Assembly (NCBI GenBank): GCA_963829055.1
Contig: CAWHHI010000008.1
Location: 32,001 to 96,000 of the forward strand
Direction of reading: 5' to 3'
Length of the DNA stretch: 64,000 bases
DNA from: an uncultured Gemmatimonadaceae bacterium
Lineage (GTDB): Bacteria > Gemmatimonadota > Gemmatimonadetes > Gemmatimonadales > Gemmatimonadaceae
This document shows positions 840 to 63,718 of this stretch, one piece after another; the first letter of the stretch is position 1, and the number at the start of each line of letters is the position of its first letter. The translations under genes were made by a program, and so were the position numbers. The notes beneath the pieces are model-generated. The model did not search any database. It was not told where the DNA came from and saw only the letters and a list, made by a program, of their open reading frames with translations.

Positions 840-906
840 CAATTCTCGCAGGAGACACGCCTACGAGGCGCGAATCGAGTACCTAACGCCCGCTCCTGAC
901 GCGCGC

Positions 907-942
907 GAGCCCGGTTTCGGAAGGTCCGAAACCGGGCTCTTT
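907..942 (+). terminator. Intrinsic terminator between convergent genes
   Basis: 14-bp stem GAGCCCGGTTTCGG/CCGAAACCGGGCTC, 5-nt loop, followed by TTT. Confidence 0.8.
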
Positions 943-1022
943 GCGTCGTGTTGCCGTTCTTCCCCTGGTACGTTTGCTACCTGTGCTGCCTGTCTTACGG
1001 GTGATCGATTTGGGCTGCGCGG

Positions 1023-1439
1023 CTATCTCGCGTCCCGGGCGTCCCCCGCTGCTTCGACGCTCTCTTCTTCCATGTCATCCCGCCCAGAGCGCGAGCCGTT
1101 GCCCTGATCGCGTGACATCCCCTCGCGCGAGACCTCCACCGGTGACTCGCGGTCGGAGTACGCCGCGCCGGACGTCTCGTTGCCGCGTCCGTTGGATTGA
1201 CGCCCACGATTCTTGGCGCCACGGGACTCCCCACCCTCGCGTCCAATCGCGGCCATGTGCGCGCGATCGCGACTCACAACCTCTCCTCCCTTTCGGCCCG
1301 CGACGCGAGCCTCGTCCGACGTCCACTCGTGAGCGGTTCCCTTCGCGTGCGCAGCACGCCCGCCCTTGCTGGCGATCTCTTTCTGTCGGTTCGCGTCCAT
1401 CGACGCAAACCCCCGCTTGCTCTTGCCCGTTCCCGACAT
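1023..1439 (-). CDS. KGG-repeat general stress protein (YciG/GsiB-like)
   Basis: RGFASMD..QKEIASKGG, EARVAGRKGG and HMAAIGREGG repeats; GGAGG 5 nt before the ATG at 1439. Confidence 0.9.
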   Translation of the reverse strand: MSGTGKSKRGFASMDANRQKEIASKGGRAAHAKGTAHEWTSDEARVAGRKGGEVVSRDRAHMAAIGREGGESRGAKNRGRQSNGRGNETSGAAYSDRESPVEVSREGMSRDQGNGSRSGRDDMEEESVEAAGDARDAR

Positions 1440-1550
1440 CCGCGCCTCCATCAGTTGGGGTCATGTCAACTCTGGCTCGCGGATCCCCAACAGCTTCTAT
1501 CCGCGAGCACCGCAACAATCCAATTCCCTGACCCAACACACCAGCCCGGC

Positions 1551-1565
1551 GCAATTCATGGGCCG
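1551..1565 (-). promoter_or_regulatory. Sigma54-like -24/-12 element upstream of the KGG gene
   Basis: CGGCCC-ATGAA-TTGC (GG-N10-GC spacing). Confidence 0.45.
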
Positions 1566-1900
1566 TAACGTGAGAGCGGGCGTAGAATTTTCTACAATCA
1601 AGTGACTAGGTGGCCAACTTCGCACTCGATGCTCGCCCACGTTTCCCAACCAATCTGCGAGTCCGCACATCATCGCAGAAGCAGCGGCACGCCGCGGTCT
1701 CCACTCGCCCGCCGCGTACATCGGGTTCGAAGCGCCGCCCTGGCCGAGCGCCTGCGACGACCGATAGCGGTGATGAGCGTTCACACAATTAGTTGGAATC
1801 GCAACCCTATCGCGTAAGGCAAGCGGGTTGCAAGGCAAGGCACGGGCCGCGCGCTCGTGCATTAGCTGAGAATCGCGCTACTGCGGGCTATATTCCCGCT

Positions 1901-5146: not shown

Positions 5147-6397
5147 ATGCATCGCTACCTGCCGCTCGTCGTCGTCCTGCTGGCTTGCTCCTCTTCCGCG
5201 GGCGACCGGTCTGACTCCACCGCCCAGGCGTCCGCCGCGCCCGCCACCTCGACTCCTGCGCCGGCCGCCGCTGCTGGAGCGATGGCGAGCGATTCGGCCG
5301 GCACGGCCGTCAGCGCCGCGAGCGGCGGCTCAGCGACGGCGAGCACGGCTCCAGCTACGGCGGTGCGCCCGGCATCGGCCGCGGATCTCCCGATCGTGCG
5401 CGGTCTGTACGTGAACCGCTTCGCCGCCCAGAGCGCCAAGCGCATGCACAAGCTCATCGCGATCGCGGACTCCACCGAGATCAATGCCTTCGTCATCGAC
5501 GTGAAGGACGAGTTCGGGCTGAACATCGCGTCGCAGGATCCGATGGTGCAGAAGAATGCTGGCAAGGCCGGCGTGATCCCTAACGCGAAAGCGTTGCTCG
5601 ACACGCTCAAGGCGCACGACATCCTGGCGATCGCGCGGATCGTGGTGTTCAAGGACTCGGTCGCGGCACGCGTCAATCCCGATCACGTGATCCGGAAGCC
5701 GGACGGCACGGCATGGCGCGACAAGCAGGGCCTAACGTGGGTGAATCCGTACGACGAGGAGATCTGGGAGTACGACATGCGCGTGGCGGAGGAAGCGGTG
5801 CGCCTGGGATTTGGCGAGGTGCAGTTCGACTACATCCGCTTTCCCGAGCCGTACAAGAGCCTTCCGCCGCAGGTATTCCCCAAACAGAACGGGCGCTCGA
5901 AGCCGGACGTGCTCGCGGAGTTCCTGCGACGGGCGAACGGGCGCCTCGACAAGCTGGGCGCACGGACGACCGCGGACATCTTCGGTCTCGTCACGACGGT
6001 GGGCGGCGCCCTCGAGATCGGGCAGGAGTGGGAGAAGGTCTCACCGGCGGTGGACGTGGTGCTGCCGATGACGTACCCGTCGCACTATCCGCCAGGCGCG
6101 TTCGGCGTGAAGCGGCCTAACGCGGAGCCGTACACGATCCAGTTGAAGGCGATCTCGCGCGCGCGCCAGCGCGACGAGAAGCTCGGACTCTCGGGTGAGC
6201 GCGTGCGCCCGTGGATCCAGGCCTTCTCGCTGGGCCAACCGAAGTACGATGCGTCGCATGTGAAGGAGCAGATGCGCGGCATCTACGACGCGGGCTACAA
6301 CGGGTGGGTGTGGTGGCACCCCGGCTCTGTCTACGAGCCGTACCTCGGGGCACTCGAGACGAAGCTCGTGCCACACGCCAAAACAGGCGGCAAATAG
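5147..6397 (+). CDS. Putative glycoside hydrolase (DUF4015-like) lipoprotein
   Basis: Lipobox LLAC, Ala/Ser linker, INAFVIDVKD, IARIVVFKD, WVNPY, EVQFDYIRFP, PMTYPSHY, RPWIQAF. Confidence 0.85.
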   Translation: MHRYLPLVVVLLACSSSAGDRSDSTAQASAAPATSTPAPAAAAGAMASDSAGTAVSAASGGSATASTAPATAVRPASAADLPIVRGLYVNRFAAQSAKRMHKLIAIADSTEINAFVIDVKDEFGLNIASQDPMVQKNAGKAGVIPNAKALLDTLKAHDILAIARIVVFKDSVAARVNPDHVIRKPDGTAWRDKQGLTWVNPYDEEIWEYDMRVAEEAVRLGFGEVQFDYIRFPEPYKSLPPQVFPKQNGRSKPDVLAEFLRRANGRLDKLGARTTADIFGLVTTVGGALEIGQEWEKVSPAVDVVLPMTYPSHYPPGAFGVKRPNAEPYTIQLKAISRARQRDEKLGLSGERVRPWIQAFSLGQPKYDASHVKEQMRGIYDAGYNGWVWWHPGSVYEPYLGALETKLVPHAKTGGK

Positions 6398-6400
6398 ACT

Positions 6401-6520: not shown

Positions 6521-6617
6521 CAAACGGCAAGCGGCGTTGGCACCGCCTCGCAATCGAATGGTTGGTAGCGCCTAACGGCGGTACGGCAATGGGAACGTGC
6601 GGCCATATCTTGGCGGC

Positions 6618-7100
6618 ATGACTCCATTCCCTGATCCTCCCGGCTTCGCCGACTGGGAGGCGACCGTACCGGCGTCGTTCAAGCGGGACACGATCTGGCG
6701 CACGCCTGCCTACCGCTTCGGTCTGTGGTTGGGCGACTTGGTGAAGGCCGACGCAAATGTGCTGCGCGCTGACCGGAACAGTCGTAATGACGCCGACCAA
6801 CTGCTACGGGCGGTAGGGTCTATCAGTTCCAACCTTTCGGAAGGCTACAGTCGCAGCACTGGCCCGGAGCGAGCGCGCTACTACGATTACGCACTCGCAT
6901 CGGCCAGAGAGTCGAGGGACTGGTATTTCAAAGCGAGAGACGTGTTAGGCATCGAGAGGATGGAGCATCGCATCGAGATCCTCGACCGCATCATTCGGAT
7001 CCTCACTGCGATTGTTCCGCGTGAACGCGAGGATAAGTCGCACAGGCGACGGCGGAAGGACCGCGATAATCGCCCGCCGCGAACAGATCTGGACCGCTAG
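6618..7100 (+). CDS. Four-helix-bundle protein (23S rRNA IVS protein / bAvd-like family)
   Basis: DQLLRAVGSISSNLSEGYSR..ERARYYDYALASARESRDW matches the family pattern (Q..RA..SI..NI.EG..R, A.GS..E). Confidence 0.88.
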   Translation: MTPFPDPPGFADWEATVPASFKRDTIWRTPAYRFGLWLGDLVKADANVLRADRNSRNDADQLLRAVGSISSNLSEGYSRSTGPERARYYDYALASARESRDWYFKARDVLGIERMEHRIEILDRIIRILTAIVPREREDKSHRRRRKDRDNRPPRTDLDR

Positions 7101-7250: not shown

Positions 7251-9540
7251 CTAGAAATCGGCCGAGATCCGGACGAGGATGTTTCGGCCCGGATCAAGCG
7301 CGAAGCTCTTGTACCGGCTCAGGAATGACGTGTACCGCGTGTTCGCGAGATTGCGCACGCGCAGGTCGAAGCGAAACGGATGCGATCCGATGTGGCGCGC
7401 CAGGCCCGCGTCGAGGCCCAGCAGCGTGTAGCCGTCCGTCGGCTGGTCGAACTGGCCGAGTCGTGTCTGCTTCGACGAGATCTCGACGTCCACACCGGCG
7501 TGCGCACGCTCGGCCCAACTCAGGCCCACGGTGTGGAAGTCCGTCTCCAACGTCGTGCGCGGAGCCGGCATGAGCGGGAGCGGCTCGTCCGTGTCCTCGT
7601 TCGTCCCGCGCACGATGTCATAACGCGCGCGGAGTGTGACGATGCTCGTCGGATCCACATCCGCCGAGAACTCGGCGCCGTTCAGCGTCGCCAGCGTGTG
7701 CTGGTAGCGGTACACACTCAGGTTGCCCTGCTGCTGGCCCGTCGGCGCGATGTAGATGAAGTCGTCGATCCGGTTGTGAAAGCCCGACAGCTCGGCGTGC
7801 GCGCGTCGACTGCTCCACCGGAGGCTGCCGTCCAGGTTGAGGCTCGTCTCCGGATCGAGGGTCGCGTCGCCGATCTCGTAACGCGCTTCCCCCAGTCGCG
7901 GACCGTTCGCGAACAGCTCGAACAGCGTCGGCGCACGCCATGCGCGGCCGATGTTCGCGGCGACCGATACGTCCGGCACGAGTTGCACGACCGCGCCGAC
8001 GTCGCCGGAGAGCGCGCTCGAGTGACGCGATTGATCGGAGACCCCGAGGTCCGCGTTCGCATCGGCGTCCAGCGAGTGGAGATCCCCGCGTGCGCCGGCG
8101 ACGAAGCTGACGCGACCGAGATCGAATTGCTCGAACGCGAAGGCCGCGGCCGTCGCCAGCCGCGCATCGGGCACGAGCGGGATGATCCCGCGCGAGTCAC
8201 TCGACTGATACCCGCCGCTCACGCCTAACGTGCCGCGCAGCCGGCCCTCGCTCCCGTGATGTGCCAGAACGTCCGCCGTCAGCGTGTTGAGGAGGAGGTT
8301 GAATACTTCGGTCTCCGTCCCTGTCGGTGCGCCGCCCGGTCCGAGCTCGTCCGACACCTCAGCCAGCGAGTGACGCTGCCACTGGACCTTTGGCTCGAGC
8401 CGCAGCCCGCCAGCGACGTAGTTGCCGGTGAACTGCACCCGGTCGTCGGACAGCTTTCGCTCGGGCCCTTCCTCCTCTTCCTCGCTGCCCGGAGGCTTGG
8501 CCGCCTCGCCCGCCTCGAGCAGATGGAACTCGCCGCCATAACGCGCGTAGCGGAGTGTCGACGTGCCGCGAGACGAGCGGAACCCGGCCGCTGCTTCGCC
8601 GGTGACGGCGGAGAACTTCGTGTTCTCCAGCTTCCCGTCAGGCGTGGTCATGTCTTCGGAAAGCCGAGCGATTGCCGTCGCGCGCCAGCCGAGCCGTGAC
8701 CGCGCGCCCTCGGCGCCGAGCACGACGTCCCCCTCGCGATTGTTCGACGCGCCGGACAGCTCGGCCGTCGTGCGCGTGAAGTTACCCGCGCTCGCGTCAG
8801 GCAGCGCGGCGGGAACCGCGTTGACCACGCCGCCGATCGCGTCCGAGCCGTACAGCACACTCGCGGGTCCGCGAATGACTTCGACACGTTGCGCGAGACG
8901 GGCGTCGATCGACGGGCCATCCTCATCGCTCCACGAGTAGTCCTCGAGGCGATGCCCGTTGTCCAGCACCAGGACGCGCGATCCGCTGAGGCCACGGATG
9001 ACGGGCTTTCCGATCTGCTGGCCTGTCGTGAGGTTGTGCACGCCCGGCAGGCGATCGATGGCGCCCGAGAGCGTCACGCTCTGTTCCCGCTGCAGGCGAT
9101 CGCCCGCGAGTTGCGTGACCGGGAGCGGCGACCGGCTCGGATCGAGCACATCGCGCGTGGCCGTCACGACCACAGGCTCCAGGTCTCCGAGGATCAGTGG
9201 CAAGCGCAGATCGAACGACGTACGATCGCCTGCGCCAACGGTGATCGTGCGCGAGACGGACGCGTACCCCAGTCGTCGCGCGACCAGCGTGTAGCGGCCG
9301 GCAGGGACGTCGGCGAAGACGAACGCGCCCTGCGCGTTCGTCGATGCGGCGCGCGAGAGCTCCACGATGGTGACCCGCGCCGCATCGATGGGCACACCGG
9401 TCGAATCGGCAACCCGTCCGCGAATCGAATCCGAGGCCGTGGCCGTCGCGACCACTCGCTCGCTGCGCGGCACTGAAGCGTTGGCACTCGCAGCTGACTC
9501 CGAGTAACGCGATCACGGCGAGTGAAAGACAGAGCGTCAT
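7251..9540 (-). CDS. TonB-dependent receptor with N-terminal carboxypeptidase-regulatory-like domain (probable frameshift near 9480)
   Basis: IRGRV..G.F.F.DVPAGRYTL..RLGY, TonB box VVVTATR, plug KPVIRGLSG and RVEVIRGPASVLYGSDAIGGVVN, C-terminal F; signal peptide in an adjacent frame from 9540. Confidence 0.92.
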
Positions 9541-9564: not shown

Positions 9565-10785
9565 TCAGTCGCGTGTGAGATCGGCAACCCCGGCAACGAG
9601 ACGGTCGACCTCGTCGGCCGTCGTATAGCACGCGCATCCAGCGCGAACGACGCCGTCATCGGCGTGCCCGATTCGCTCGAGCACCGTCGTGGCGTAGAAG
9701 TCACCGTTCGAGACGAAGACGCCACGGCGAGCCAGCGCGCGCGCGACGTCGTCGGAGACCATGCCGTCGAGCGTGAAGGCGACGGTTGGCGTGCGAGCGC
9801 TTCCGGGCTGACAGCCATACATCCGCACTCCGGGAATCGCCGATAACCCATTCCACATGCGTGCGAGCAGCGCCGTTCCCTGTTCGTGCAACGTCGCGAA
9901 CGCCGACACGAGTCGGTCGCGCCGCGAGGCGCCCTGCCCCAGGCTGGCGAGATAGTCGACCGCGGCCGCCGCGCCAATGATCCCCTCGTGATTCTGCGTG
10001 CCGGTTTCGAGCCGCTCGGGCGGTGCTTCCGGCGCCGGCTGCAGCTTCGGCACGTCGAGCGACGCGATGAGATCGTTCCTGCCCCACAGCACGCCAACGT
10101 GCGGGCCATAGAACTTGTAGGCCGAGCAGGCGAGGAAGTCGCAGCCTAACGCCTTGACGTCCACGAGCACGTGCGGTGCGTAGTGCACGGCGTCGACGAA
10201 CACGAGCGCGCCCTGCGCCTTGGCGAGACGCGCGGCGGCGGCCACGTCGGTGACCGTCCCCAGCGCGTTGGACGCAGCGCCGATCGCGAGGAGCTTCGTG
10301 CGCGGTGTGATCGCCTGCTCGAGGTCGGCCCAGTCGAGCACGCCCGCCTCGGGATCCATGCGGACCGTCCTGATCGTGACGCCGCGCTCGGCGGCGAGCC
10401 GCGTCCACGGCGCGATGTTGCCATGATGATCGAGCTCCGTGACGACGACTTCGTCGCCCTTGCCCCAACGCGTCGCGAGCCCGCGCGCGAGGTGGAACGT
10501 GAGCGTCGTCATGTTCAATCCGAAGGCGATCTCCGTCGCGTCGCCGTTCACGAAGTCGGCGAACGCCACGCGCGCCGCGTCGAGTGCGGCGTCAGTCTCC
10601 GCGCTCGTCGGGTAGTTCCAGTGCGTGTTCGCGTTGTGGTAGAACAGGTACGTGTTCATCGCCTCGACGACCTGGCGCGGCACCTGCGTGCCACCAGGGC
10701 CGTCGAAATACGCAACGGGGTACCCTTCGTGCTTGCGCTCGAGCGCCGGGAAATCGCGCCTAACGTTGTTGACGTTGTTGCTCAT
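9565..10785 (-). CDS. Cysteine desulfurase-like class V aminotransferase (VC1184-type)
   Basis: YFDGPGGTQVP, LDHHGNIAPW, VDAVHYAPH, CSAYKFYGPH (PLP Lys), ETGTQNHE. Confidence 0.92.
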   Translation of the reverse strand: MSNNVNNVRRDFPALERKHEGYPVAYFDGPGGTQVPRQVVEAMNTYLFYHNANTHWNYPTSAETDAALDAARVAFADFVNGDATEIAFGLNMTTLTFHLARGLATRWGKGDEVVVTELDHHGNIAPWTRLAAERGVTIRTVRMDPEAGVLDWADLEQAITPRTKLLAIGAASNALGTVTDVAAAARLAKAQGALVFVDAVHYAPHVLVDVKALGCDFLACSAYKFYGPHVGVLWGRNDLIASLDVPKLQPAPEAPPERLETGTQNHEGIIGAAAAVDYLASLGQGASRRDRLVSAFATLHEQGTALLARMWNGLSAIPGVRMYGCQPGSARTPTVAFTLDGMVSDDVARALARRGVFVSNGDFYATTVLERIGHADDGVVRAGCACYTTADEVDRLVAGVADLTRD

Positions 10786-11675
10786 CCGGACACCTCGCAG
10801 CCGGCCCAGGACTCGATCAACTTCACGGTCTCCACGTGATCAGCCTCCTCACCTAACGCGCCGCGGGCCACACGGAGCAGGTCGGCGACGGTCTGTGTGA
10901 GCGGCGACGGCACGCGATTCTCCCGCGCGAACTCGGCCGCGATGGTCACATCCTTCTCCATGAGCGCGAGCTTGAACGTGCGGGGGAACGCGCGCGTGAT
11001 CACGCGCTCGGTGAACAGGTTCTGCGACACGTTCGACCGACCGCTCGACGCGTTGATCACGTCGAGCGCGAGGCTCGCCGACACGCCCGCCTTCGACAGC
11101 GAGACCAGCCCTTCGCTGAGCGCCCAGATGTGAATGCCGAGGAGTGCCTGGTTCACCGCCTTCACGGCGTCGCCTGAGCCGACGGGGCCGCAGAGGACGA
11201 TCTTCTTCCCGAACGCCTCGAGCACCGGCCGAGCGCGTTCGAGGGTTGCCTCATCGGCGCCGCACATGACGGTGAGCGTCCCCTGCTGCGCGCCCGACAC
11301 GCCGCCGCTGACGGGCGCGTCCATGAACGCAACGCTGCGCGCCGATAGCCGGCCTGCGATGCGCTTCGACGTTGCCGGATCACCGGACGTGCAATCGATG
11401 AAGAGCACACCGTCGGCGATGCCGGCCAGCAGCCCGTCGTCGCCATCGAGGAGGGACTCGACCTCGCGTGACGTTGGCAGACAGGTGATAACGACATCGG
11501 CCCCACGTGCGGCATCCGCCGGAGATGTGGCGACACGCGCGCCGGTCTCGGCGCCGAACGCACGGGCGCGCTCGGCCGTGCGGTTCCACACCGTGAGGGA
11601 GAACGGCGGCTTGGCGAGATGGAGCGCGATCGGGGTACCGATCGCGCCAAGGCCCAGGAAGGCAACGCTTGTCAA
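10782..11675 (-). CDS. NAD(P)-dependent 3-hydroxyisobutyrate dehydrogenase family oxidoreductase
   Basis: FLGLGAIG, WNRT, DAPVSGG..GA..GTL, VKAVNQ, F.LALMEKD. Confidence 0.92.
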   Translation of the reverse strand: MTSVAFLGLGAIGTPIALHLAKPPFSLTVWNRTAERARAFGAETGARVATSPADAARGADVVITCLPTSREVESLLDGDDGLLAGIADGVLFIDCTSGDPATSKRIAGRLSARSVAFMDAPVSGGVSGAQQGTLTVMCGADEATLERARPVLEAFGKKIVLCGPVGSGDAVKAVNQALLGIHIWALSEGLVSLSKAGVSASLALDVINASSGRSNVSQNLFTERVITRAFPRTFKLALMEKDVTIAAEFARENRVPSPLTQTVADLLRVARGALGEEADHVETVKLIESWAGCEVSG

Positions 11676-12161: not shown

Positions 12162-13580
12162 CTATGGGATCGGCCAGCGGACCGTAACATTGTTACCGGT
12201 TGCGACGTACCCAACGGCGAAATACGGCTGCACCGATGTTATCGCGACCGCAATCGTATTGTCGGAGCCGCTGCCCACCTGTCCGAGGCCACTGAGTCTC
12301 GATGGAGCGCCGGCGAGCGTGGGAGGAGGGCCGGACAGGTCGAGACGCCAGACGGTGCCCTGATTTTTTCCACCGGTGCTGCAGCTGTAGCCAACAATGA
12401 TTCCGGCACTGTTCACATCTTGCGCGCGACCGCCGGCGCACGAAGACGACAGAGATGGAAGGGGCGTGCCGACAACATTCCCTGCCCACGTCGTACCGTT
12501 TCGGTACCAGTACACGGGCGTGCCAGCACGCTGTCCAACGACGACGGTCCCCGCGGGATTGATCGCGTAGGCGATCCCGTCGAGCAGTGCGTAGGTCGTC
12601 GCGTTGTTCCAGACCACACCCTGCACGGTTCCGCCGGCGGACGTCGTCCGTCCTGCCGCCTGTCCGGCTTCGTTCACGTCGTAGATCGATGCGGCAGCAC
12701 CCGGAAGGGCGTACTGAATCGGCTGCGGATCCCACGCACCGTTGGCGCGACGCCAGACCACAGGACGATTGACCTGATTGCGCGCGACCGTTACCGCCAA
12801 CCAGCCGCCGGCGAGCAGTGTTCCGTCACTCGCTATTGCGGCTGATGTCGCGTTGCCACCACCGCTACCGGAAAACCCAGGGAGCGTCTGCCGTGTCCAC
12901 TGGCCGCTGCTCATGTCGCGCGTCCACGCGACCGCGACGAAGCCCCCGTCACGGCCTAACGCGACGGTTCCCGTGGGGTCGATGCCCCAGGCCTGACCCG
13001 CGCCAAGGTCGACGGCCGCACCCGAGATGTTGTCATACACCCACGCACCGGACAGGTCGCCATACCCGACGGCGCTCACCTGCTCGCTGGCGCCCATGAC
13101 GTACCCGCCAATCCCGCCGCCAAGCACTTGTGCGGTGGTGACCTCGAACTTCTCGGTGCCGACGCCTTTCTTGCCCCCAATCAGCGTGACTGCAATGTCC
13201 CAGTACGCGAGATCGGCATCGGCCGAAACCGTGATGTTCGCGACGAGCTCGGACGCGCTCACGACGGTGGTCGAGTTCGTGCGCACCTTCGCGGCATTCG
13301 GGACGCCCGCGAGCGCCCATTCCGCCGCCGCACCAGCGGTGAAGCCGGAGCCGAATACGTGGACGTCCAAAGTCGTGTCCCGGCGTGCGTAGGATGGTGA
13401 CGCAGACGTGACCGCGGGCCCCGCGGGCGTCTTGCCTAACGACGGCCGGTCCACGAGACGGACGTTCGTGGGCGCGTCGCTACAGGCGACGGACAGCGCA
13501 GATAGCCCGGCGGCCATCAGCGCACCAGCGGTGCGTCGCGCACGCGAGGCGGGCAAGAGGATGCGCATGTGGTGGGGCAT
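12162..13580 (-). CDS. Secreted lipoprotein with Ig-like domain and HAF-like beta repeats
   Basis: Lipobox VAC; VTSASPS..DVHVFGSGF; repeats A.(D/A)IN.AG..VG and V.W; GGAG RBS. Confidence 0.75.
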   Translation of the reverse strand: MPHHMRILLPASRARRTAGALMAAGLSALSVACSDAPTNVRLVDRPSLGKTPAGPAVTSASPSYARRDTTLDVHVFGSGFTAGAAAEWALAGVPNAAKVRTNSTTVVSASELVANITVSADADLAYWDIAVTLIGGKKGVGTEKFEVTTAQVLGGGIGGYVMGASEQVSAVGYGDLSGAWVYDNISGAAVDLGAGQAWGIDPTGTVALGRDGGFVAVAWTRDMSSGQWTRQTLPGFSGSGGGNATSAAIASDGTLLAGGWLAVTVARNQVNRPVVWRRANGAWDPQPIQYALPGAAASIYDVNEAGQAAGRTTSAGGTVQGVVWNNATTYALLDGIAYAINPAGTVVVGQRAGTPVYWYRNGTTWAGNVVGTPLPSLSSSCAGGRAQDVNSAGIIVGYSCSTGGKNQGTVWRLDLSGPPPTLAGAPSRLSGLGQVGSGSDNTIAVAITSVQPYFAVGYVATGNNVTVRWPIP

Positions 13581-48442: not shown

Positions 48443-49267
48443 CTATGCACGCCATGGATTGCACGACGTTCGACGACCGGCTGGCCGACTACCTCGAAGG
48501 GGATCTCGCACCCGCCGATCGCCGGCAGGTCGAGGCGCACCTCGCGACGTGTGTTCGGTGCACGGCGCTCGTTCGCGATCTCGAGCGCATCCGCGCTGAC
48601 GCGAGCGAGCTGCCGGAGCTGACACCGTCGGCGGACCTGTGGAGCGGCATCGCTCGTCGTATCGACGCGCCCGTGGTTCCGCTGGTGCCGCGTGTCCACG
48701 CCTAACGTGACGACGCGCCGCCGGTTCGAGCGCCTGCGCACGGCGGCGATCGCGGCGGCACTGGTCGCCGTCACCGCCAGCGTGACGTACACCCTCACGG
48801 TCGCTCGGGATTCGGCCCGGTCCGGCGAATCCATTGCGGCGAACACGCAGCGGGGTCCGACACCCGACACGAACGTCGCGTCGTCCGTACGGGACGAAGC
48901 CCGCCGTGACACACTTCCGTCATCGAACGTTGGCCCGGCGCCCGAGTCGGTCGCGAGCACCAACCCGACTCGAGCCAGCGGGCGCGCCACGACGCAAGCC
49001 GTCCGGAATACGCCGGAGTCCGTGACGTACTCACGAGAGATCGATCGCCTGCGGACGATCTTCGCCCGCACACGCTCGCAGCTCGATCCGCGGACGGCGG
49101 CGATCATCGAAGCGAACCTGAAGGTGATCGACGACGCCATTGCGCAGAGCGAGGCTGCGCTGGCGCAGGATCCGGCGAGTCGGTTCCTCAGCGATCAGTT
49201 GAACAGTGCACTCGACAAGAAGCTCGAGCTCCTGCGGACAGCAGCGCTGCTGCCGAACCGCACCTAA
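48439..49267 (+). CDS. zf-HC2 anti-sigma factor (frameshift near 48695)
   Basis: LADYLEGDL..HLATCVRC; TM helix and C-terminal helical domain (NLKVIDDAI..AL..DP) in the next frame. Confidence 0.85.
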
Positions 49268-49273
49268 CGGGAA

Positions 49274-50221
49274 ATGACACGCATGAGAACGTCCCTGCTC
49301 CTGGCCGCGATCGCGGTCGTCGCCCTGCCCCCCTGTATAGTCGGGGCGCAGAGCAATCGCGACCGCGAGCGCGAACGTGAGGAGCCGCAAGATGTACAAT
49401 CGCGCATCGATACGACGTTCACGTTCAGCCGCACGGGCGTCGTGGACCTCACGCAGGTCTCGGGCGACGTCATTGTCACCGCGTGGGACCGCGGCGAAGC
49501 GCGCATCCGCGCCTACGCCGAGCGTGGACGCATTCGCTCCAGCCTGTCGTCGTCGCGCCTAACGCTGGAGATCGAGTCGGTCCGCGGGCGTGTCGGGGAC
49601 TCGCGCTTCGAGGTGTCCGTTCCCGTCGGCGTCCGCGTCCTCGCGCGCAGTACGTCCGGCGATGTCACCGTGAAAGGCACGAAGGGTCCGGTGGACGCCC
49701 GGTCCACGAGCGGCGACGTCACGGTAACGGAGGCAACCGATCGCGTCGTGATCGAGTCGGTGTCCGGCGACGTGCACGCCTCACAACTCACCGGCGAGGT
49801 CCGGAGCGAATCGGTCAGCGGCACGATCGAGATCCGCAACGCCAGCGGCGAGGTCCGCGCCGAGACCACGAGTGGCGACGTGTCGCTGCTCGGGGTTACC
49901 TCGCGCAGCGTATTCGCGACGACCGTGAGCGGCGAGGTCGAGTACGACGGCACCATCGACGCGAACGGACGCTACGAGTTCCACTCGCATTCGGGCGACA
50001 TCCGGCTGGAAATTCCGGAGAGCTCGGGGGCGCAGTTCACGGTCGAGACGTTCAGTGGATCGCTCGATACCGAGTTCAAACTCACCCTGCAGCCAGGACA
50101 GCGCTCCACCGGACGTCCTCGGCGCTTCGAATTCACGCTCGGGAACGGCAGTGCGCGCGTCACCGCGGAATCATTCAGCGGCGACGTCATTCTCGCACGG
50201 CGCGCCGGCTCTAGTCGCTGA
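49274..50221 (+). CDS. DUF4097 beta-strand-repeat (adhesin-like) exported protein
   Basis: Signal peptide; repeated S(T/V)SGDV motifs. Confidence 0.88.
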   Translation: MTRMRTSLLLAAIAVVALPPCIVGAQSNRDREREREEPQDVQSRIDTTFTFSRTGVVDLTQVSGDVIVTAWDRGEARIRAYAERGRIRSSLSSSRLTLEIESVRGRVGDSRFEVSVPVGVRVLARSTSGDVTVKGTKGPVDARSTSGDVTVTEATDRVVIESVSGDVHASQLTGEVRSESVSGTIEIRNASGEVRAETTSGDVSLLGVTSRSVFATTVSGEVEYDGTIDANGRYEFHSHSGDIRLEIPESSGAQFTVETFSGSLDTEFKLTLQPGQRSTGRPRRFEFTLGNGSARVTAESFSGDVILARRAGSSR

Positions 50222-51829: not shown

Positions 51830-52513
51830 ATGACACGTACCCTCGTCCGATTCCATAGAACGATCGCAATCACCGCCTGCGCCTCGCTGGCGTTGAGCGG
51901 GTGCGCGTCGCTCAACAACAAGGAAACAGCCGGCATCATCGGCGCCGCCGGAGGCGCCGTGGCCGGCGGAGCCATCGGCCGGGCCAATGGGTCCACCGCC
52001 AAGGGCGCCATCCTCGGCGCGGTTGTCGGAGGTGCCGCAGGCATGATCATCGGCCATCAAATGGACAAGCAGGCGGCAGAGTTGAAGCAGAACATCCCGG
52101 GTGCAATCGTCGAGCGCGTCGGCGAAGGTATCCAGGTCACGTTCGCGTCAGGGCTGTTGTTCGACTTCGACTCCGACGTCATCCGCGCCGACGCGAGAAC
52201 GAATCTCCGCAACCTCGCTGCGAGCCTCGACAAGTATCCAGGCTCCGAGTTGCTCATCGCCGGACACACCGACAGCGTCGGCACCGACTCGTACAACCTC
52301 GCGCTGTCGCAGCGACGCTCGGAGGCGGCCGTCGCATACCTCGCCGAGCAGGGCGTCAGTCGGTCGCGCATGACGTCGCGCGGCCTGGGCGAGACGGAGC
52401 CGGTCGCGCCTAACGAGAACGAGGCCGGACGCAGCAAGAATCGACGCGTCGAGGTCGCGATCTACGCCAGTGAGGCCCAGCGCGCAGAGGCAAAGCGGCA
52501 GGCCGGCAGCTGA
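51830..52513 (+). CDS. OmpA family lipoprotein with glycine zipper (YiaD-like)
   Basis: Lipobox LSGC; LFDFDS, IAGHTD..G..YN..LS.RR, GR.KNRRVEV. Confidence 0.93.
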   Translation: MTRTLVRFHRTIAITACASLALSGCASLNNKETAGIIGAAGGAVAGGAIGRANGSTAKGAILGAVVGGAAGMIIGHQMDKQAAELKQNIPGAIVERVGEGIQVTFASGLLFDFDSDVIRADARTNLRNLAASLDKYPGSELLIAGHTDSVGTDSYNLALSQRRSEAAVAYLAEQGVSRSRMTSRGLGETEPVAPNENEAGRSKNRRVEVAIYASEAQRAEAKRQAGS

Positions 52514-58225: not shown

Positions 58226-59566
58226 ATGCACTGGAAGATTCGTCCGCGCCAGCTCGCTTCGATCGCCGTCATCGCACTGCTCGTGGTGGCCATCGCCGCG
58301 TGTGGAACGTACGGCAAGAGCTACCCCAACTCGACGTTCAACAACACGACCGAGTTCAACACGGCGATCAAGTCGCTCTGGGACAAGCTGCTGTTCTGGG
58401 GAACGCTGGTGTTCGTGATCGTCGAAGGCATTCTCATCTACACGATCATTCGCTTCCGTCGTCGAAGCGATGCGGATGAGCCGCAGCACGTCCACGGCAA
58501 CACGGTCCTCGAGATCGCGTGGACGATCGCGCCGGCCGTCATTCTCGTCTTCATTGCCATCCCAACCGTCCGCACGATCTTCCGCACGCAGGCGCGCGCG
58601 GTACCGAACGCGCTGCAGGTCGAGGTCGTCGGACACCAGTGGTGGTGGGAGTTCCGCTACCCGCAGTACACCACGCCGTCCGCGATGCCTGGCCGCGTGG
58701 ACACGCTGGTCACCGCCAACGATCTGTATCTGCCCATCGGTCGGACTGTGAACTTCACGCTCAGAACGAAGGACGTCCTGCATTCGTTCTGGATTCCGCA
58801 GCTCGGCGGGAAGCGTGACCTCATCACGAACCACACGAACTATCTGTGGTTCACGCCCGACTCGTCGCTCACGACGAGCGTGTTCAACGGCAGCTGCAAC
58901 GAGTACTGCGGCGCATCGCACGCGAACATGCGCTTCCGGACGTTTGTGGTGACGCCCACGGAGTTCGAAGGCTGGGTGTCGCATCAGCTCACGCCGGCCG
59001 CGTTTGCCGCGGCGCCTCCAGCGCCGCCGGCCGCAGCGCCACCGGCAGACTCGACGCGTGGTGCTGCGACAGCGAGACAGACCGCGGCTACGGCCGCGCC
59101 CGTGCCCGTGACGCCCGCGGTCGCCGTGGCTCAACAGCCAGCGGGCTACACGTTCCCCATGGCGTCGCTGCCGGACCACGCGACGCCGCACACGGGAGTG
59201 CCCTCGGGTCTCACGTTCCCGGACGGGATCACCGGCGACGCTCAGCGAGGCGCGCGGCAGTTCTCCCAGAGCGCCTGCATTGGCTGTCACGCGATTCGCG
59301 GCACGATGGCGTCATCTCCCATTGGCCCGAATCTCACGCACATCGGCAGTCGCTCGACTATCGCCGCCGGCATCTACCCTAACGACACGCGGCACCTTCG
59401 CCTCTGGATCAAGAACGCGCGGCTCATGAAGCCCGGGTCGGCAATGCCGACGCTTGGCCTCGGGCAGCGCGATCCGATCACGGGCGCTGCGGTCACGGCA
59501 GGGCTGGGCGGGCTCAGCGACCAGCAGATCGCGGATATCGTCGCGTACCTGCAGGCCCTGCGGTAG
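58226..59566 (+). CDS. coxB: Cytochrome c oxidase subunit II with fused cytochrome c (caa3 type)
   Basis: LEIAWT, GHQWWWEF.Y, DVLHSFW, CNEYCGASHANM (CuA), CIGCH heme motif. Confidence 0.96.
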   Translation: MHWKIRPRQLASIAVIALLVVAIAACGTYGKSYPNSTFNNTTEFNTAIKSLWDKLLFWGTLVFVIVEGILIYTIIRFRRRSDADEPQHVHGNTVLEIAWTIAPAVILVFIAIPTVRTIFRTQARAVPNALQVEVVGHQWWWEFRYPQYTTPSAMPGRVDTLVTANDLYLPIGRTVNFTLRTKDVLHSFWIPQLGGKRDLITNHTNYLWFTPDSSLTTSVFNGSCNEYCGASHANMRFRTFVVTPTEFEGWVSHQLTPAAFAAAPPAPPAAAPPADSTRGAATARQTAATAAPVPVTPAVAVAQQPAGYTFPMASLPDHATPHTGVPSGLTFPDGITGDAQRGARQFSQSACIGCHAIRGTMASSPIGPNLTHIGSRSTIAAGIYPNDTRHLRLWIKNARLMKPGSAMPTLGLGQRDPITGAAVTAGLGGLSDQQIADIVAYLQALR

Positions 59567-59665
59567 TCTGACATTCGTCAGATCGTTCGCACCACGAACC
59601 GATCGCCCCCGACGCACCTAACGACAGCGATCGACTTCTCACCCTCGTAGCAAACCGACGACCCC

Positions 59666-61595: not shown

Positions 61596-61627
61596 TTCAG
61601 TCTGTTCACTAGATCTCCACGAGACGA

Positions 61628-62311
61628 ATGTCTGCCTCGCCAGCGCTCGACCACGTACAAGCCGGCGCACACGGCCATCACTACACGACCACCGGGCTGG
61701 ATAGCCGGAAGATCGCCATCTGGGCGTTCATCGGGTCGGAGTGCATGCTGTTCGCGTCGTTGATTTCGACGTACCTCATCTACAAGGGGCGAAGCGTCGT
61801 CGGACCGTTCCCGCATGAGGCGTGCGCTCCACCGGCCTGCCAGGTGCCCCTCAAGGCGATCCTGAACATCCCGGTCACGTCCGCGTCGACGTTCGTGCTG
61901 CTCATGTCGTCGCTGGCGATGGTGCTCGCGCTGGCGGCGGTCGAGAACCGCAATCTTCCGAAGCTCACGACGGGCGACCGCATTCTCGGGTCGTCCAAGC
62001 TGTGGCTGTGGGTCACGTGCATTCTCGGCGCGACGTTCCTCGGCTTCCAGGCATTCGAGTTCACGTCGTTCGTGCACGAGGGTCTGTCCATCCGCACGAA
62101 CCTGTTCGGCTCGTCGTTCTTCACGCTCACAGGCTTCCACGGCGCGCACGTTACCGCCGGCGTGATCTGGCTAGGCACGTTGCTCGCGATCGACTACAAG
62201 CGCGGGCTCGGGCCCGGTGACGCCATCAACGTCGACATTGCGGCCCTGTACTGGCACTTCGTCGACGTCGTCTGGATCGCGATCTTCACCCTCATCTACC
62301 TCATCAGGTAA
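61628..62311 (+). CDS. coxC: Cytochrome c oxidase subunit III
   Basis: W.FIGSE, FFTLTGFHGAHV, LYWHFVDVVW. Confidence 0.95.
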   Translation: MSASPALDHVQAGAHGHHYTTTGLDSRKIAIWAFIGSECMLFASLISTYLIYKGRSVVGPFPHEACAPPACQVPLKAILNIPVTSASTFVLLMSSLAMVLALAAVENRNLPKLTTGDRILGSSKLWLWVTCILGATFLGFQAFEFTSFVHEGLSIRTNLFGSSFFTLTGFHGAHVTAGVIWLGTLLAIDYKRGLGPGDAINVDIAALYWHFVDVVWIAIFTLIYLIR

Positions 62312-62321
62312 GGAGCCGCAC

Positions 62322-62720
62322 ATGGCGCAGCAGGACTCGGCTCCCAAGGGGCACGGCGGGCATGCGAGCGGTGCAGCGGCGGGCGGAGCACACGTCGCCC
62401 CAGCCGCCGACGATGCACATGCGCACGCACACCCCACGTGGAAGCAGTACAAGTGGGTCGCACTGATCCTGACCGCGATTACCGTCGTCGAGGTGTGGAT
62501 CTACTACATCCCGTCGTTCGTCGCGTCCAAGCTGTTCGTTCCCGCCTTGCTCATCATGTCGGCGGTGAAGTTCGCGATCGTGGTGCTGTTCTACATGCAC
62601 CTCAAGTACGACGCGCGACTGTTCCGCGCGCTGTTCACCGGCCCACTGATCATCGCCGTCGTGACGATCATCAGCTTGATGTTCCTGTTCGGACATCTCG
62701 CCATTCGCGTTGGCTCCTGA
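62322..62720 (+). CDS. Cytochrome c oxidase subunit IV family
   Basis: AAGGAG RBS; His-rich N-terminus; KFAIVVLFYMHLKYD. Confidence 0.9.
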   Translation: MAQQDSAPKGHGGHASGAAAGGAHVAPAADDAHAHAHPTWKQYKWVALILTAITVVEVWIYYIPSFVASKLFVPALLIMSAVKFAIVVLFYMHLKYDARLFRALFTGPLIIAVVTIISLMFLFGHLAIRVGS

Positions 62721-62769
62721 TCGCGCGACTGGCCCCAGTTCCCTCGCTGTACCGTAGGTGTTGCTCGTA

Positions 62770-63718
62770 ATGTCCCCTGCACTGCCGCCTGCCGCGCTCG
62801 CCGTCGTCCACCCTGTTGCCCAGGTCGGGTGGACGAGCTGGACGATCCACTGGAGCACCGTCATCGGGCTCGCGGCGTTAGGCTGGCTGTACGTGTGGGG
62901 CGCGCGTCGCGTGCAGGCACGCGCGGCGGCTCGCGGTGAGAACGTCCCCGAGGTCCGGCGGTCGCAGCAGGTCTCGTTCTTCTGCGGCCTGCTGGTGATT
63001 TTCTGCTCGCTGAACGGGCCACTGCACGACTTGAGCGACACGTATCTGTTCAGCGCGCACATGGTGCAGCACCTGCTGCTCAGCCTCGCCGTTCCGCCGT
63101 TGCTCATTGTGGGCACGCCCGGCTGGCTGCTGCGCCCCTTCCTCCGAGAACGCGAAGATCGCGACCGTGGCGCGCGCTGTCACACCACCCGTCCGCTGCT
63201 TCGTCATCTTCAACGTCGTGATTTCGTTGTGGCACCTGCCGCCGCTCTACAACACGGCGATGGCGTACCACCCGATCCACATCGTGCAGCACCTGACGTT
63301 CATGATCGCGTCGGTGCTCATGTGGTGGCCGTTTCTCAGCCCGCTGCCCGAGCTACCTCGGCTCTCGTACCCGGGCCAGATGCTCTACTGCTTCCTCATG
63401 GTCATCCCGATGTCGATCATTTCGATCTACATCGCGATGGCGGATCATGTCCTGTATCCCGCCTACTCGATCGCGCCGCGCGTCTGGGACATCTCTCCGC
63501 TCAGCGACCAGCAGATCGGTGGTCTCATCATGTGGATTCCGGGCGGGCTTCTGTTCTACGTGGTGATGACGTTCGTGTTCTTCAAGTGGGCAGGCCGAGA
63601 TACCGACACCACCGCCGGCGCGCAGGTCGATTGGCGTCCGGCGCCGCCCGCTCGCGCCTCCCGTCCTCAGCCGCAGCCGCCGGTCACCGTTCGACAGGAT
63701 CGCTCGTCCTCGTACTGA
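62770..63718 (+). CDS. ctaG: Caa3 oxidase assembly factor CtaG (frameshift near 63140)
   Basis: PLHDLSDTYLFSAHMVQHLLL, WHLPPLY, H..QH, DQQIGGLIMWIPG. Confidence 0.92.

What the first reader, a model, noticed from the sequence alone, without database searches (positions are those of the whole stretch)
882..62882. Window-wide over-represented asymmetric 7-mer CCTAACR
Seen (manual count): about 43 CCTAAC sites. On +: 882, 5579, 5731, 6116, 6571, 8224, 10145, 10759, 10852, 12955, 13435, 16431, 24800, 25129, 25869, 26603, 27103, 27884, 31263, 34150, 37889, 46126, 46963, 48701, 49263, 49558, 52409, 59378, 59617. On - (GTTAGG): 6944, 20838, 22697, 27528, 30536, 34714, 34871, 37382, 38582, 39018, 42673, 43797, 45499, 62877. 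Of these, 38 are CCTAACG, 5 are CCTAACA and none is CCTAACY. I found only about 3 CCTAA followed by another base and about 4 CTAAC preceded by another base. Most sites lie inside genes, in different frames and on either strand, and use codons that are otherwise rare here (GCG-TTA-GGC in ctaG, GGC-CTA-ACG in the glycoside hydrolase, CCT-AAC in ompA). That points to selection or mutational drive at the DNA level rather than a peptide motif. Known analogues are cyanobacterial HIP1, uptake sequences (DUS/USS), Chi and KOPS; I recognise none with this sequence. Inference: an uncharacterised chromosome-wide signal for methylation/repair, recombination, uptake or nucleoid-protein binding. The 29:14 strand bias is only moderate.
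Basis: partly seen in the sequence, partly recalled or inferred. Interest (0 to 1): 0.88.

Follow-up and report, generated by a model that had tools for sequence, protein, structure and literature searches.

The report
Hyperabundant GCCTAACG word in Gemmatimonadaceae genomes
This soil bacterium and scattered relatives carry one eight-letter DNA word about once per kilobase, written through ordinary genes against their codon habits and unusually evenly spaced, much like the self tags Neisseria and Haemophilus use when taking up DNA; the word is also the core of integron recombination sites, and what reads it is unknown.

Summary
All 43 CCTAAC sites are at the stated places (about 5 expected by chance): 38 are followed by G, 5 by A, none by C or T. 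The full word is (G>A>C)CCTAAC(G>A). In the 7.78 Mb genome (Gemmatimonadaceae, 66.5% G+C) GCCTAACG occurs 5004 times, against 100-260 expected under low-order Markov models and 97 in a codon-preserving shuffle of 3471 genes (observed there: 2275). It is the top-ranked 8-mer.

It is not an artefact: contigs from four public studies and short-read assemblies of relatives also carry it. The word shows no bias with gene strand or replichore; the window's 29:14 split is local. Copies closer than 200 bp are 2-4 times too rare, unlike control words. Sites are conserved about twice as well as other 6-mers between congeners.

Richness is patchy: 16 of 401 genomes of the phylum have at least twice the control count, and one genus holds both states. 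One relative has a variant, GCCAAACG.

No methyltransferase, Vsr, RecC, AddB, ComP, pilin or integron integrase tracks the word. The best fit is an uptake-sequence-like transfer bias, which is unproven. The word equals the integron attC/attI R-box, yet over 94% of copies are solitary.

The parts
882..887 (+). word site, ACCTAACG
5579..5584 (+). word site, CCCTAACG, inside DUF4015 glycosyl hydrolase gene
5731..5736 (+). word site, GCCTAACG (GGC-CTA-ACG in the same gene)
6116..6121 (+). word site, GCCTAACG
6571..6576 (+). word site, GCCTAACG
6944..6949 (-). word site, GCCTAACA
8224..8229 (+). word site, GCCTAACG
10145..10150 (+). word site, GCCTAACG
10759..10764 (+). word site, GCCTAACG
10852..10857 (+). 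word site, ACCTAACG
12955..12960 (+). word site, GCCTAACG
13435..13440 (+). word site, GCCTAACG
16431..16436 (+). word site, GCCTAACG
20838..20843 (-). word site, GCCTAACG, in acyl-CoA dehydrogenase gene; conserved in G001, G002, G005; GCCTGACG in G003, G004
22697..22702 (-). word site, GCCTAACG
24800..24805 (+). word site, GCCTAACG
25129..25134 (+). word site, GCCTAACG
25869..25874 (+). word site, GCCTAACG
26603..26608 (+). word site, GCCTAACA
27103..27108 (+). word site, ACCTAACG
27528..27533 (-). word site, ACCTAACG
27884..27889 (+). word site, GCCTAACA
30536..30541 (-). word site, GCCTAACA
31263..31268 (+). word site, GCCTAACG
34150..34155 (+). word site, GCCTAACA
34714..34719 (-). word site, GCCTAACG
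34871..34876 (-). word site, CCCTAACG
37382..37387 (-). word site, GCCTAACG
37889..37894 (+). word site, CCCTAACG
38582..38587 (-). word site, GCCTAACG
39018..39023 (-). word site, GCCTAACG
42673..42678 (-). word site, GCCTAACG
43797..43802 (-). word site, GCCTAACG
45499..45504 (-). word site, CCCTAACG
46126..46131 (+). word site, GCCTAACG
46963..46968 (+). word site, GCCTAACG
48701..48706 (+). word site, GCCTAACG
49263..49268 (+). word site, ACCTAACG; its TAA is the stop codon of ORF 48692-49267, and the next gene starts at 49274
49558..49563 (+). word site, GCCTAACG
52409..52414 (+). word site, GCCTAACG
59378..59383 (+). word site, CCCTAACG
59617..59622 (+). word site, ACCTAACG
62877..62882 (-). 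word site, GCCTAACG

Best explanation
GCCTAACG is a real, lineage-specific 'self word' of the DNA itself. Shown: point substitutions write it into resident DNA in genes and spacers, on both strands and in every reading frame that avoids an in-frame stop, against codon preference. Once present it is preserved, and copies keep their distance from one another. Inferred: the word is read by a machine that handles DNA in pieces of a few hundred bases to a kilobase, for which one copy per piece is enough. The most likely such machine is a biased step in DNA transfer between kin: preferential uptake of word-bearing fragments during natural transformation, followed by homologous recombination. That process spreads the word by molecular drive, as proposed for USS and DUS. 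The reader protein is unknown.
For: Abundance: 5004 copies in 7.78 Mb against 102-258 expected under order 1-3 Markov models, and top-ranked among 6-, 7- and 8-mers. In 3471 CDS there are 2275 copies against a mean of 96.9 in 20 synonymous-codon shuffles.
DNA-level action: 1357 of 1979 TTA codons lie inside the word. In the context xCG-Leu-GGC, TTA is used 922 of 2010 times, against 226 of 4935 in other contexts. G-CCN-AAY-G is CCTAAC in 638 of 823 cases, against 6 of 555 when neither flank is G.
Strand neutrality: 1521 copies on the gene's strand and 1719 opposite; no replichore skew.
Even spacing: observed/expected gap counts are 0.26, 0.31, 0.40 and 0.59 for gaps under 20, 20-50, 50-100 and 100-200 bp, and 1.33 for 500-1000 bp. 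Six control words give 0.85-1.53 in the four short bins. A purely mutational process should not give this spacing; it is expected if one copy per fragment suffices.
Maintenance and turnover: 57 of 106 sites are conserved against G001 and 72 of 214 against G004 (72 of 118 in the reverse direction), compared with 24-28% for all 6-mers. The alternative states are substitutions such as CCGAGC, CCGAAC and CCTGAC.
Lineage pattern and a dialect: 14 of 41 relatives and 16 of 401 phylum genomes carry at least twice the control count. G010 carries GCCAAACG 925 times against 110 for the control.
Fewer copies in atypical DNA: 6.0 per 10 kb in the most atypical 3% of windows, against 9.6 in typical windows.
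Machinery: ComEC, DprA, a ComEA-like fragment and 7 pilin-like genes are present.
Literature: passages of PMC7811141 describe USS spacing of about 1 kb, a relatively even distribution, under-representation in newly acquired segments, and molecular drive.
Against: No experiment shows transformation in this phylum, and no held paper pairs 'Gemmatimonadetes' with 'uptake sequence' (one search found only irrelevant hits). The competence genes do not discriminate: ComEC and HHH_3/ComEA are in 28 of 28 genomes tested, word-rich and word-poor alike. Pilin homologues are in 28 of 28 and a PilW-like minor pilin in 28 of 30. No ComP_DUS domain was found in G000, G001, G005 or G014. Unlike DUS, the word does not form inverted pairs or terminators: pairs 40-160 bp apart number 84 (+-), 80 (-+), 79 (++) and 94 (--). 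Unlike USS, there is no informative flank. Unlike both known families, richness is patchy within one family and even within one genus: G294 has 66 copies against 3479-4141 in its three congeners. The exact match to the integron R-box is not explained by uptake alone. The gene calls used here are my own crude ones, and the assembly carries indel errors.
Confidence: 0.4

Rival explanations
1. Binding-site array for an abundant sequence-specific DNA-binding protein, such as a nucleoid or chromosome-organising factor. Selection keeps roughly one site per 0.5-1 kb.
For: Even spacing with short-range repulsion. Strand neutrality. Conservation at orthologous positions. Similar density in genes and other DNA: 0.61 against 0.71 copies per kb.
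Against: No candidate protein. Known nucleoid proteins of bacteria do not need thousands of exact 8-mers (recalled, not tested). Word-poor congeners and sister genera do without it. It does not explain the dialect or the integron identity any better than uptake does.
Confidence: 0.2
2. The word is read as an integron-type R-box by IntI or another tyrosine recombinase. Solitary copies would then serve, or result from, recombinase binding or nicking across the chromosome.
For: GCCTAAC is a canonical R'' (RYYYAAC) and GTTAGGC a canonical R' (GTTRRRY); the aadB attC R'' is GCCTAAC (passages of PMC12901181). Cassette arrays in word-poor sister-family genomes start each attC with GCCTAACG. G000 has an intI-family gene (265.7 bits, cut-off 265). 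Next to it are attC-like hairpins that begin xCCTAAC and end GTTRGGY. An 8 of 8 match by chance is unlikely (my estimate: below 0.5% even at consensus level).
Against: IntI above cut-off occurs in 25 of 35 genomes, word-rich and word-poor alike. It was not found above cut-off in the rich genomes G402, G004 and G002, and is in pieces in the rich genome G014. The solitary copies lack a partner box: 295 have a GTTRRRY 30-150 bp downstream against 259 in the upstream control, and there is no excess of +- pairs. Known genomic insertion sites (attG) need only GWT (passages of bioRxiv 10.1101/2022.09.11.507474). Thousands of insertion targets inside genes should be harmful. Recombination leaves no substitutions behind.
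Confidence: 0.12
3. A methylation and biased-repair product, of the HIP1 or very-short-patch type: a methyltransferase marks the word, and repair converts near-matches into it.
For: The word has the form of MmeI/BREX-type asymmetric targets with A at position 5 (recalled). One-off variants at some positions are rarer than a low-order model expects, though that expectation is inflated by the word itself.
Against: G000 has no hit to the families DNA_methylase, Vsr, N6_N4_Mtase or N6_Mtase. Its one D12-class methyltransferase also has orthologues in the word-poor genomes G007, G009, G013 (an unpublished genome), G015, G017, G018 and G023, and none was found in the word-rich G014. The weak MmeI_Mtase hit in the window belongs to a protein found in 39 of 41 relatives. 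A mutational process does not predict short-range repulsion. The rare T-variants could supply only about 100 sites.
Confidence: 0.08
4. A Chi-like self-protection signal: a helicase-nuclease stops degrading DNA when it meets the word, so DNA without the word (such as phage DNA) is destroyed.
For: It is an asymmetric 8-mer of high density with at least one copy per fragment, and is rarer in atypical DNA.
Against: No orientation skew with replication: 659:716 in G-rich windows and 975:951 in C-rich windows, p = 0.14. RecC was found in only 3 of 28 genomes and not in G000. AddB_N was not found in G000. An enrichment of 20-50-fold far exceeds that of known Chi sites (recalled).
Confidence: 0.07
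5. A sequencing, basecalling or polishing artefact.
For: G000 is a 20-contig assembly with single-base indel errors: the same bases are 'left out' in contigs of several public runs, for example at 5120, 7219, 7234, 7245 and 13645. It also has split genes.
Against: Contigs of 4 runs from 4 studies cover the word sites of window 5001-15000, and none of the 40 listed letter differences or 12 listed indels lies in a 6-mer core; 172 further differences were not shown. Loci whose contig names follow short-read assembler conventions carry the word at 0.4-0.9 copies per kb: L043, L044, L046, L051, L059, L067. Congeners with 260-1170 contigs hold 2501-5112 copies. Foreign blocks inside the same assembly hold none.
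Confidence: 0.01

Closest known systems
USS of Pasteurellaceae (uptake signal sequence)
   Same: About one copy per kb. Both strands. Inside genes in several frames. Relatively even spacing. Rarer in foreign DNA. Explained there by molecular drive (passages of PMC7811141; here).
   Different: A different word in a different phylum. No AT-rich flanks. Patchy within the family. Uptake is untested. No receptor is known on either side; a minor pilin, ComN, is predicted for USS (bioRxiv 10.1101/2025.06.16.659825, abstract start in the search listing only).
DUS of Neisseriaceae, read by the minor pilin ComP
   Same: A short hyperabundant self word with dialects among related genera. Here G010 carries GCCAAACG.
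   Different: No ComP_DUS domain in G000, G001, G005 or G014. No inverted pairs or terminator use, whereas about half of all DUES lie in predicted terminators (abstract of bioRxiv 10.1101/2025.10.24.684340).
HIP1 (GCGATCGC) of cyanobacteria
   Same: A hyperabundant octamer written into genes, lineage-specific, with no established mechanism (recalled).
   Different: HIP1 is a palindrome linked to cognate methyltransferases (recalled). This word is asymmetric, and no methyltransferase tracks it.
Integron attC/attI R-box (R'' RYYYAAC, R' GTTRRRY)
   Same: The letters are identical: GCCTAAC / GTTAGGC. The same 8-mer starts the attC sites of cassette arrays in this order and in G000's own integron.
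   Different: More than 94% of genomic copies are solitary, with no partner box or hairpin, and lie inside ordinary genes. IntI presence does not track word richness.
Chi and KOPS
   Same: Asymmetric, over-represented 8-mers.
   Different: Both are strongly skewed with replication direction (recalled), and this word is not. RecC and AddB_N were not found in G000.

Membership tests
DNA uptake sequences (DUS/USS) | Short word, hundreds to thousands of copies, about 1 per kb, on both strands | tested here: met
   5004 copies of the 8-mer and 7103 of the 6-mer in 7.78 Mb; 2457 forward and 2547 reverse
DNA uptake sequences (DUS/USS) | DNA carrying the word is taken up preferentially by competent cells | not testable with these tools
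   Needs a cultured word-rich strain and an uptake assay
DNA uptake sequences (DUS/USS) | Competence machinery is encoded | tested here: met
   ComEC, DprA, 7 pilin-like ORFs and a ComEA-like fragment in G000. The same genes are in all 28 genomes tested, rich or poor, so this does not discriminate
DNA uptake sequences (DUS/USS) | Relatively even spacing along the genome | tested here: met
   Gaps under 200 bp occur at 0.26-0.59 of expectation, and gaps of 500-1000 bp at 1.33. Six control words give 0.85-1.53 in the four short bins
DNA uptake sequences (DUS/USS) | Under-represented in recently acquired DNA | tested here: inconclusive
   The most atypical 3% of 10-kb windows hold 6.0 sites against 9.6 in typical windows (rho -0.12, p = 7e-4). 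The three large word-free blocks are foreign housekeeping DNA at contig ends, probably chimeric
DUS of Neisseriaceae | ComP-type minor pilin receptor (Pfam ComP_DUS) | tested here: not met
   No hit in G000, G001, G005 or G014. The only hit above cut-off is in the word-poor G016
DUS of Neisseriaceae | Frequent inverted pairs that form terminators | tested here: not met
   Close pairs are depleted overall and no orientation class is in excess
USS of Pasteurellaceae | Core plus AT-rich flanking segments | tested here: not met
   Information content is at most 0.17 bit outside the 8-mer
HIP1-type iterated palindromes | Palindromic word with a cognate methyltransferase | tested here: not met
   The word is asymmetric. 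There are no C5, N6_N4, N6_Mtase or Vsr hits, and the D12 and MmeI-like genes are uncorrelated
Chi (RecBCD/AddAB) | Orientation skew with the replichore, and a RecC or AddB reader | tested here: not met
   No skew. RecC in 3 of 28 genomes and not in G000. AddB_N absent from G000. AdnAB was not tested
Integron attC site | R'' RYYYAAC and R' GTTRRRY letters | tested here: met
   GCCTAAC / GTTAGGC fit both consensus sequences
Integron attC site | Paired R''...R' 50-150 bp apart that fold as a hairpin next to a cassette | tested here: not met
   Met only at the integron on C20. Genome-wide, 295 copies have a downstream GTTRRRY against 259 in the upstream control, and +- pairs number 84 against 79-94 for the other classes
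Integron attC site | Dependence on an integron integrase | tested here: not met
   IntI above cut-off in 25 of 35 genomes irrespective of word richness
Restriction-modification target | The word is methylated | not testable with these tools
   No raw kinetic or signal data; the public runs are held as contigs only

The most novel reading that the evidence does not exclude
Scattered lineages of Gemmatimonadales have evolved or acquired a word-reading DNA-transfer step, most simply an uptake receptor. Its specificity is the integron R-box. Cells would then preferentially import DNA that carries gene cassettes, and as a by-product the R-box word has been driven through their own chromosomes. This would be a third, independent family of uptake-type self tags, and the first mechanistic link between uptake specificity and integron cassette capture.
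Probability: 0.15. Interest if true: 0.92.

Novelty: new variant of a known kind. Interest (0 to 1): 0.76.

Why it matters
Sequence-specific DNA uptake is established in only two bacterial families, both host-associated Proteobacteria (background from the abstracts and passages seen). A word with the same statistical signature in a soil phylum would show that self-tagging of DNA is more widespread. The signature here is about 1 copy per kb, strand neutrality, even spacing, preservation between species, and a dialect.

One example is a genus with three rich genomes and one poor one.

The identity of the word with the integron R-box is new information about how integrons and their hosts may interact. 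Natural transformation is already known to feed cassettes to chromosomal integrons (abstract of PMC12614218).

There are also practical uses. The word is a sharp marker for binning and for detecting chimeric contigs in Gemmatimonadaceae metagenome assemblies; here it exposed about 116 kb of foreign DNA at contig ends.

Tried and rejected
Artefact: rejected.

Peptide motif: rejected by the context-dependent codon tests and the codon shuffle.

Genes interrupted by the word's TAA/TAG: checked on three same-frame ORF pairs. The upstream parts are non-coding frames or separate genes, so there is no read-through.

Gene-strand or transcription link: rejected. Replichore polarity (Chi, KOPS, primase-type): rejected.

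Methyltransferase or Vsr driver: no candidate.

RecC and AddB_N: not in G000.

Receptor hunt by presence and absence: the C11 pilin, the PilW-like minor pilin, ComEA, ComEC and ComP_DUS are all uncorrelated with richness.

Integron integrase as driver: uncorrelated.

Word-free islands as mobile elements: rejected. They hold housekeeping genes whose second copies elsewhere in G000 are 47-59% identical.

Replacement word in a poor relative: G008 (400 kb sampled) has no hyperabundant word.

Literature: a string search for the 8-mer gave 478 papers. The 25 listed were primers and unrelated uses; I did not see the rest.

Loot et al. 2024 could not be read; its preprint was read instead.

The careful tree did not finish, so the tree is the quick one.

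A full phyletic profile of all genes was not possible, because only G000 can be laid whole.

Full report
**Observation.** Dinucleotide-preserving shuffles give a mean of 5.25 (largest 11; 0 of 100 reach 43). One search confirms the finer claims: CCTAACG 38, CCTAACA 5, CCTAACC 0 and CCTAACT 0. Only 3 CCTAA are not followed by C, and only 4 CTAAC are not preceded by C. The flanks show that 27 of the 43 sites are the full octamer GCCTAACG.

**Extent and statistics.** The window is C8:32001-96000 of a 7,784,024-base, 20-contig genome with 66-67% G+C.
- Genome-wide, CCTAAC occurs 7103 times and GCCTAACG 5004 times, counting both strands.
- Markov models of order 1, 2 and 3 expect 131, 102 and 258 copies of the 8-mer.
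- The word and its parts rank first among all 6-, 7- and 8-mers.
- Orders 4-6 expect 2917, 4755 and 5066, but this is circular. The 5- to 7-mers of the word hardly exist outside it (7103 of 7392 CCTAA are CCTAAC), so such models have simply learnt the word.
- The logo over all 7103 sites is G .79/A .12/C .07, then CCTAAC, then G .90/A .07, with at most 0.17 bit outside.
- A null that keeps each protein and each gene's codon usage leaves a mean of 96.9 copies of the 8-mer in 3471 confidently called CDS (20 shuffles of synonymous codons within genes; largest 75 + 49). The observed count there is 2275.

**It acts on DNA, not on peptides.**
- 1357 of 1979 TTA codons and 533 of 2494 CTA codons lie inside the word.
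- For the dipeptide Leu-Gly(GGC), TTA is used in 922 of 2010 cases when the two preceding bases are CG, which completes the word. It is used in 226 of 4935 cases otherwise.
- Pro-Asn is written CCTAAC in 638 of 823 cases when flanked G...G, and in 6 of 555 cases when neither flank is G.
- The word lies on the gene's strand 1521 times and on the opposite strand 1719 times. It occupies all frames that avoid an in-frame stop. Its density is 0.61 per kb in called genes and 0.71 per kb elsewhere.
- These figures rest on my own rough gene caller.

**Not an artefact.**
- G000 does carry assembly errors. Contigs from public runs consistently lack single bases at 5120, 7219, 7234, 7245 and 13645, and several genes are split.
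- The stretch 5001-15000 is held in 20 public runs from 16 studies of soil, rhizosphere and sediment.
- Contigs of four runs from four studies cover its word sites. None of the 40 listed letter differences or 12 listed indels falls in a 6-mer core; 172 further differences were not shown.
- Six loci of relatives whose contig names follow short-read assembler conventions carry the word at 0.37-0.91 per kb: L043, L044, L046, L051, L059 and L067.
- The six congeners have 260-1170 contigs and hold 2501-5112 copies.

**Orientation and spacing.**
- The 29:14 bias in the window is local. The genome has 2457 forward and 2547 reverse copies.
- A runs test of orientation along contigs gives z between -2.1 and +1.2 on all large contigs.
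- Windows of 50 kb with positive GC skew hold 659:716, and those with negative skew hold 975:951 (p = 0.14).
- Spacing is not random. Observed/expected gap counts are 0.26 (under 20 bp), 0.31 (20-50), 0.40 (50-100), 0.59 (100-200), 1.10 (200-500) and 1.33 (500-1000).
- Six control words thinned to similar density, including the near-variants CCGAAC, CCGAGC and CCTGAC, give 0.85-1.53 in the four short bins.
- No orientation class of close pairs is in excess, so the word is not used as an inverted-repeat terminator.

**Evolution.** Relatives place the organism in Gemmatimonadaceae.
- Among 41 close genomes, 14 carry at least twice as many copies as the reversed control word. These are all 7 of the genus, plus G014 (6360 copies in 5.1 Mb), G010, G019, G020, G036, G038 and G040.
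- Among 401 genomes drawn across the phylum, 16 do so: 13 of 94 in the own family, 3 of 166 in a sister family, and none in the other classes.
- These tallies include the unpublished genomes G013, G086, G204 and G125, all as word-poor rows.
- One genus holds three genomes with 3479-4141 copies and one (G294) with 66.
- On a quick single-gene tree of 63 rows, rich loci sit in four separate places among poor ones. This is the quick tree; the careful search did not finish.
- Samples of 260-400 kb show the same word in G014 (321 against 6.9 expected) and G040 (CCTAAC 119 against 17). The poor genome G008 has no hyperabundant word at all. G010 has a second word, GCCAAACG (111 against 18.6).
- Genome-wide, G010 has 925 GCCAAACG against 110 for its control. 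Of 39 other genomes, only G324 shows a weak excess (205 against 82).
- At orthologous positions, 57 of 106 G000 sites are intact in G001 (135 kb aligned, 78% identity), and 57 of 92 in the reverse direction. For all 6-mers the figure is 27-28%.
- Against G004 (259 kb, 76.5% identity), 72 of 214 are intact, and 72 of 118 in reverse. For all 6-mers the figure is 24%.
- Non-conserved partners are ordinary G+C-rich near-variants such as CCGAGC, CCGAAC and CCTGAC. The word is therefore gained and lost by substitution and not by insertion.

**Search for a reader.**
- G000 has no hit to DNA_methylase, Vsr, N6_N4_Mtase or N6_Mtase.
- Its single D12-class methyltransferase is frameshifted in the assembly. 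It has orthologues in seven poor genomes (one of them the unpublished G013), and none was found in the rich genome G014.
- The weak MmeI_Mtase hit inside the window belongs to a protein of about 1070 residues present in 39 of 41 relatives.
- RecC is in 3 of 28 genomes and not in G000. AddB_N is not in G000.
- ComEC, DprA and seven pilin-like ORFs are present. However, ComEC and HHH_3/ComEA are in 28 of 28 genomes, pilin homologues in 28 of 28, and a PilW-like minor pilin in 28 of 30, irrespective of richness.
- ComP_DUS is absent from G000, G001, G005 and G014.

**The integron link.**
- One search listed odd same-strand runs of the word every 500-700 bp in poor genomes of the sister family. 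These are cassette arrays: each copy opens a conserved attC-like element. In G027 the array abuts intI fragments.
- G025 shows complete attC sites of the form GCCTAACG...GTTAGGC.
- In the integron literature R'' is RYYYAAC, R' is GTTRRRY, and the aadB attC R'' is GCCTAAC (passages of PMC12901181).
- G000 has an intI-family gene at C20:208041-208958 (265.7 bits, cut-off 265). Next to it are hairpin-forming elements that begin xCCTAAC and end GTTRGGY.
- The genome-wide word is therefore letter for letter the local integron R-box.
- The solitary copies are nevertheless not attC sites. A GTTRRRY lies 30-150 bp downstream of 295 copies, against 259 for the upstream control.
- IntI above cut-off occurs in 25 of 35 genomes, rich and poor alike, and was not found above cut-off in the rich genomes G402, G004 and G002.
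- Known genomic insertion sites need only GWT (passages of the preprint 10.1101/2022.09.11.507474).

**Interpretation.**
- Shown: the word is real, acts at the DNA level, is lineage-specific and strand-neutral, is preserved, is evenly spaced and is still turning over.
- Inferred: its reader handles DNA in pieces for which one copy is enough. This fits a biased DNA-transfer step best, namely uptake during transformation followed by recombination and molecular drive. USS show the same spacing of about 1 kb, the same even distribution and the same scarcity in new DNA (passages of PMC7811141).
- Against membership in the DUS or USS families: there is no ComP, no terminator pairs and no flanks, the distribution is patchy, and there is no experiment.
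- The rivals are ranked with their tests in the fields above: a site array for an abundant binding protein, a recombinase reading of the R-box, methylation with repair, and a Chi-like self signal.
- Earlier agents of this scan reported the same word in eight other windows of other Gemmatimonadaceae genomes, with the same reading. That is agreement, not independent evidence.

**Novelty.**
- I found no description in print. No held paper pairs 'Gemmatimonadetes' with 'uptake sequence'.
- Papers with Gemmatimonas and 'natural transformation' are irrelevant.
- Two papers combine integron, Gemmatimonadetes and attC, and neither is on this subject by title and abstract.
- The string search gave 478 papers, of which I saw only the 25 listed, none relevant.

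Noticed in passing
G000 C6:6854-55038, C6:591809-623330, C11:7377-44055 (outside the window): Three blocks of 31-48 kb at contig ends hold no copy of the word. The C6 blocks have 70-73% G+C. The blocks encode housekeeping genes, including FtsK, chorismate synthase, DAHP synthase, TrpG, PepA, Rpe, FolD, GlnA and IlvD. For seven of these, second copies elsewhere in G000 are only 47-59% identical. They are most likely foreign DNA joined in by the assembly or binning, and not mobile elements.
   Followed up: yes
window 24661-24778: A palindromic element of about 120 bp (GTCATTCCGAGCG ... CGCTCGGAATGAC) has very many copies on both strands in the congeners G001-G005. It accounts for the second family of over-represented words, TGTCATTCCGAGC. 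It looks like a REP- or MITE-like repeat.
   Followed up: partly
G000 C20:190545-208958 (outside the window): A chromosomal integron: an intI-family gene (265.7 bits, cut-off 265) with attC-like hairpins on its 3' side that begin xCCTAAC and end GTTRGGY. The array lies downstream of intI and converges on it, which is not the textbook layout.
   Followed up: partly
L258-L265 (G027:C95, C43, C80; G025:C3; G380:C2; G147:C51; G097:C12): Long cassette arrays in word-poor genomes of the sister family, for example 27 attC starts in 24 kb of G027:C95, all but one on one strand. Integron integrases above cut-off were found in 25 of 35 Gemmatimonadales genomes, so integrons seem very common in this order.
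   Followed up: partly
window 5120, 7219, 7234, 7245, 13645: Single bases that contigs of three or four independent public runs leave out. These are probable insertion errors of the long-read assembly, and they explain split genes such as the amino-acid permease (28829-31169), Nramp (32821-33540) and the FtsX permeases.
   Followed up: partly
window 41551-46317: Fragments with a weak MmeI_Mtase motif and SNF2/ResIII motifs. Elsewhere they correspond to one open frame of about 1000-1100 residues, found in 39 of 41 relatives. This is a conserved methyltransferase-helicase-like protein of unknown role, split here by frameshifts.
   Followed up: partly
G000 C8:134573-135785 (outside the window): A D12-class adenine methyltransferase with a DPPY motif, in two frames in this assembly. 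Orthologues were found in 15 of 41 relatives, unrelated to word richness.
   Followed up: yes
window 49265-49267 and genome-wide: The word's TAA or TAG supplies the stop codon of many genes: 341 of 3240 genic copies of the 8-mer sit at the end of a called ORF. One example is the ORF 48692-49267, followed by a new gene with a signal peptide at 49274.
   Followed up: partly
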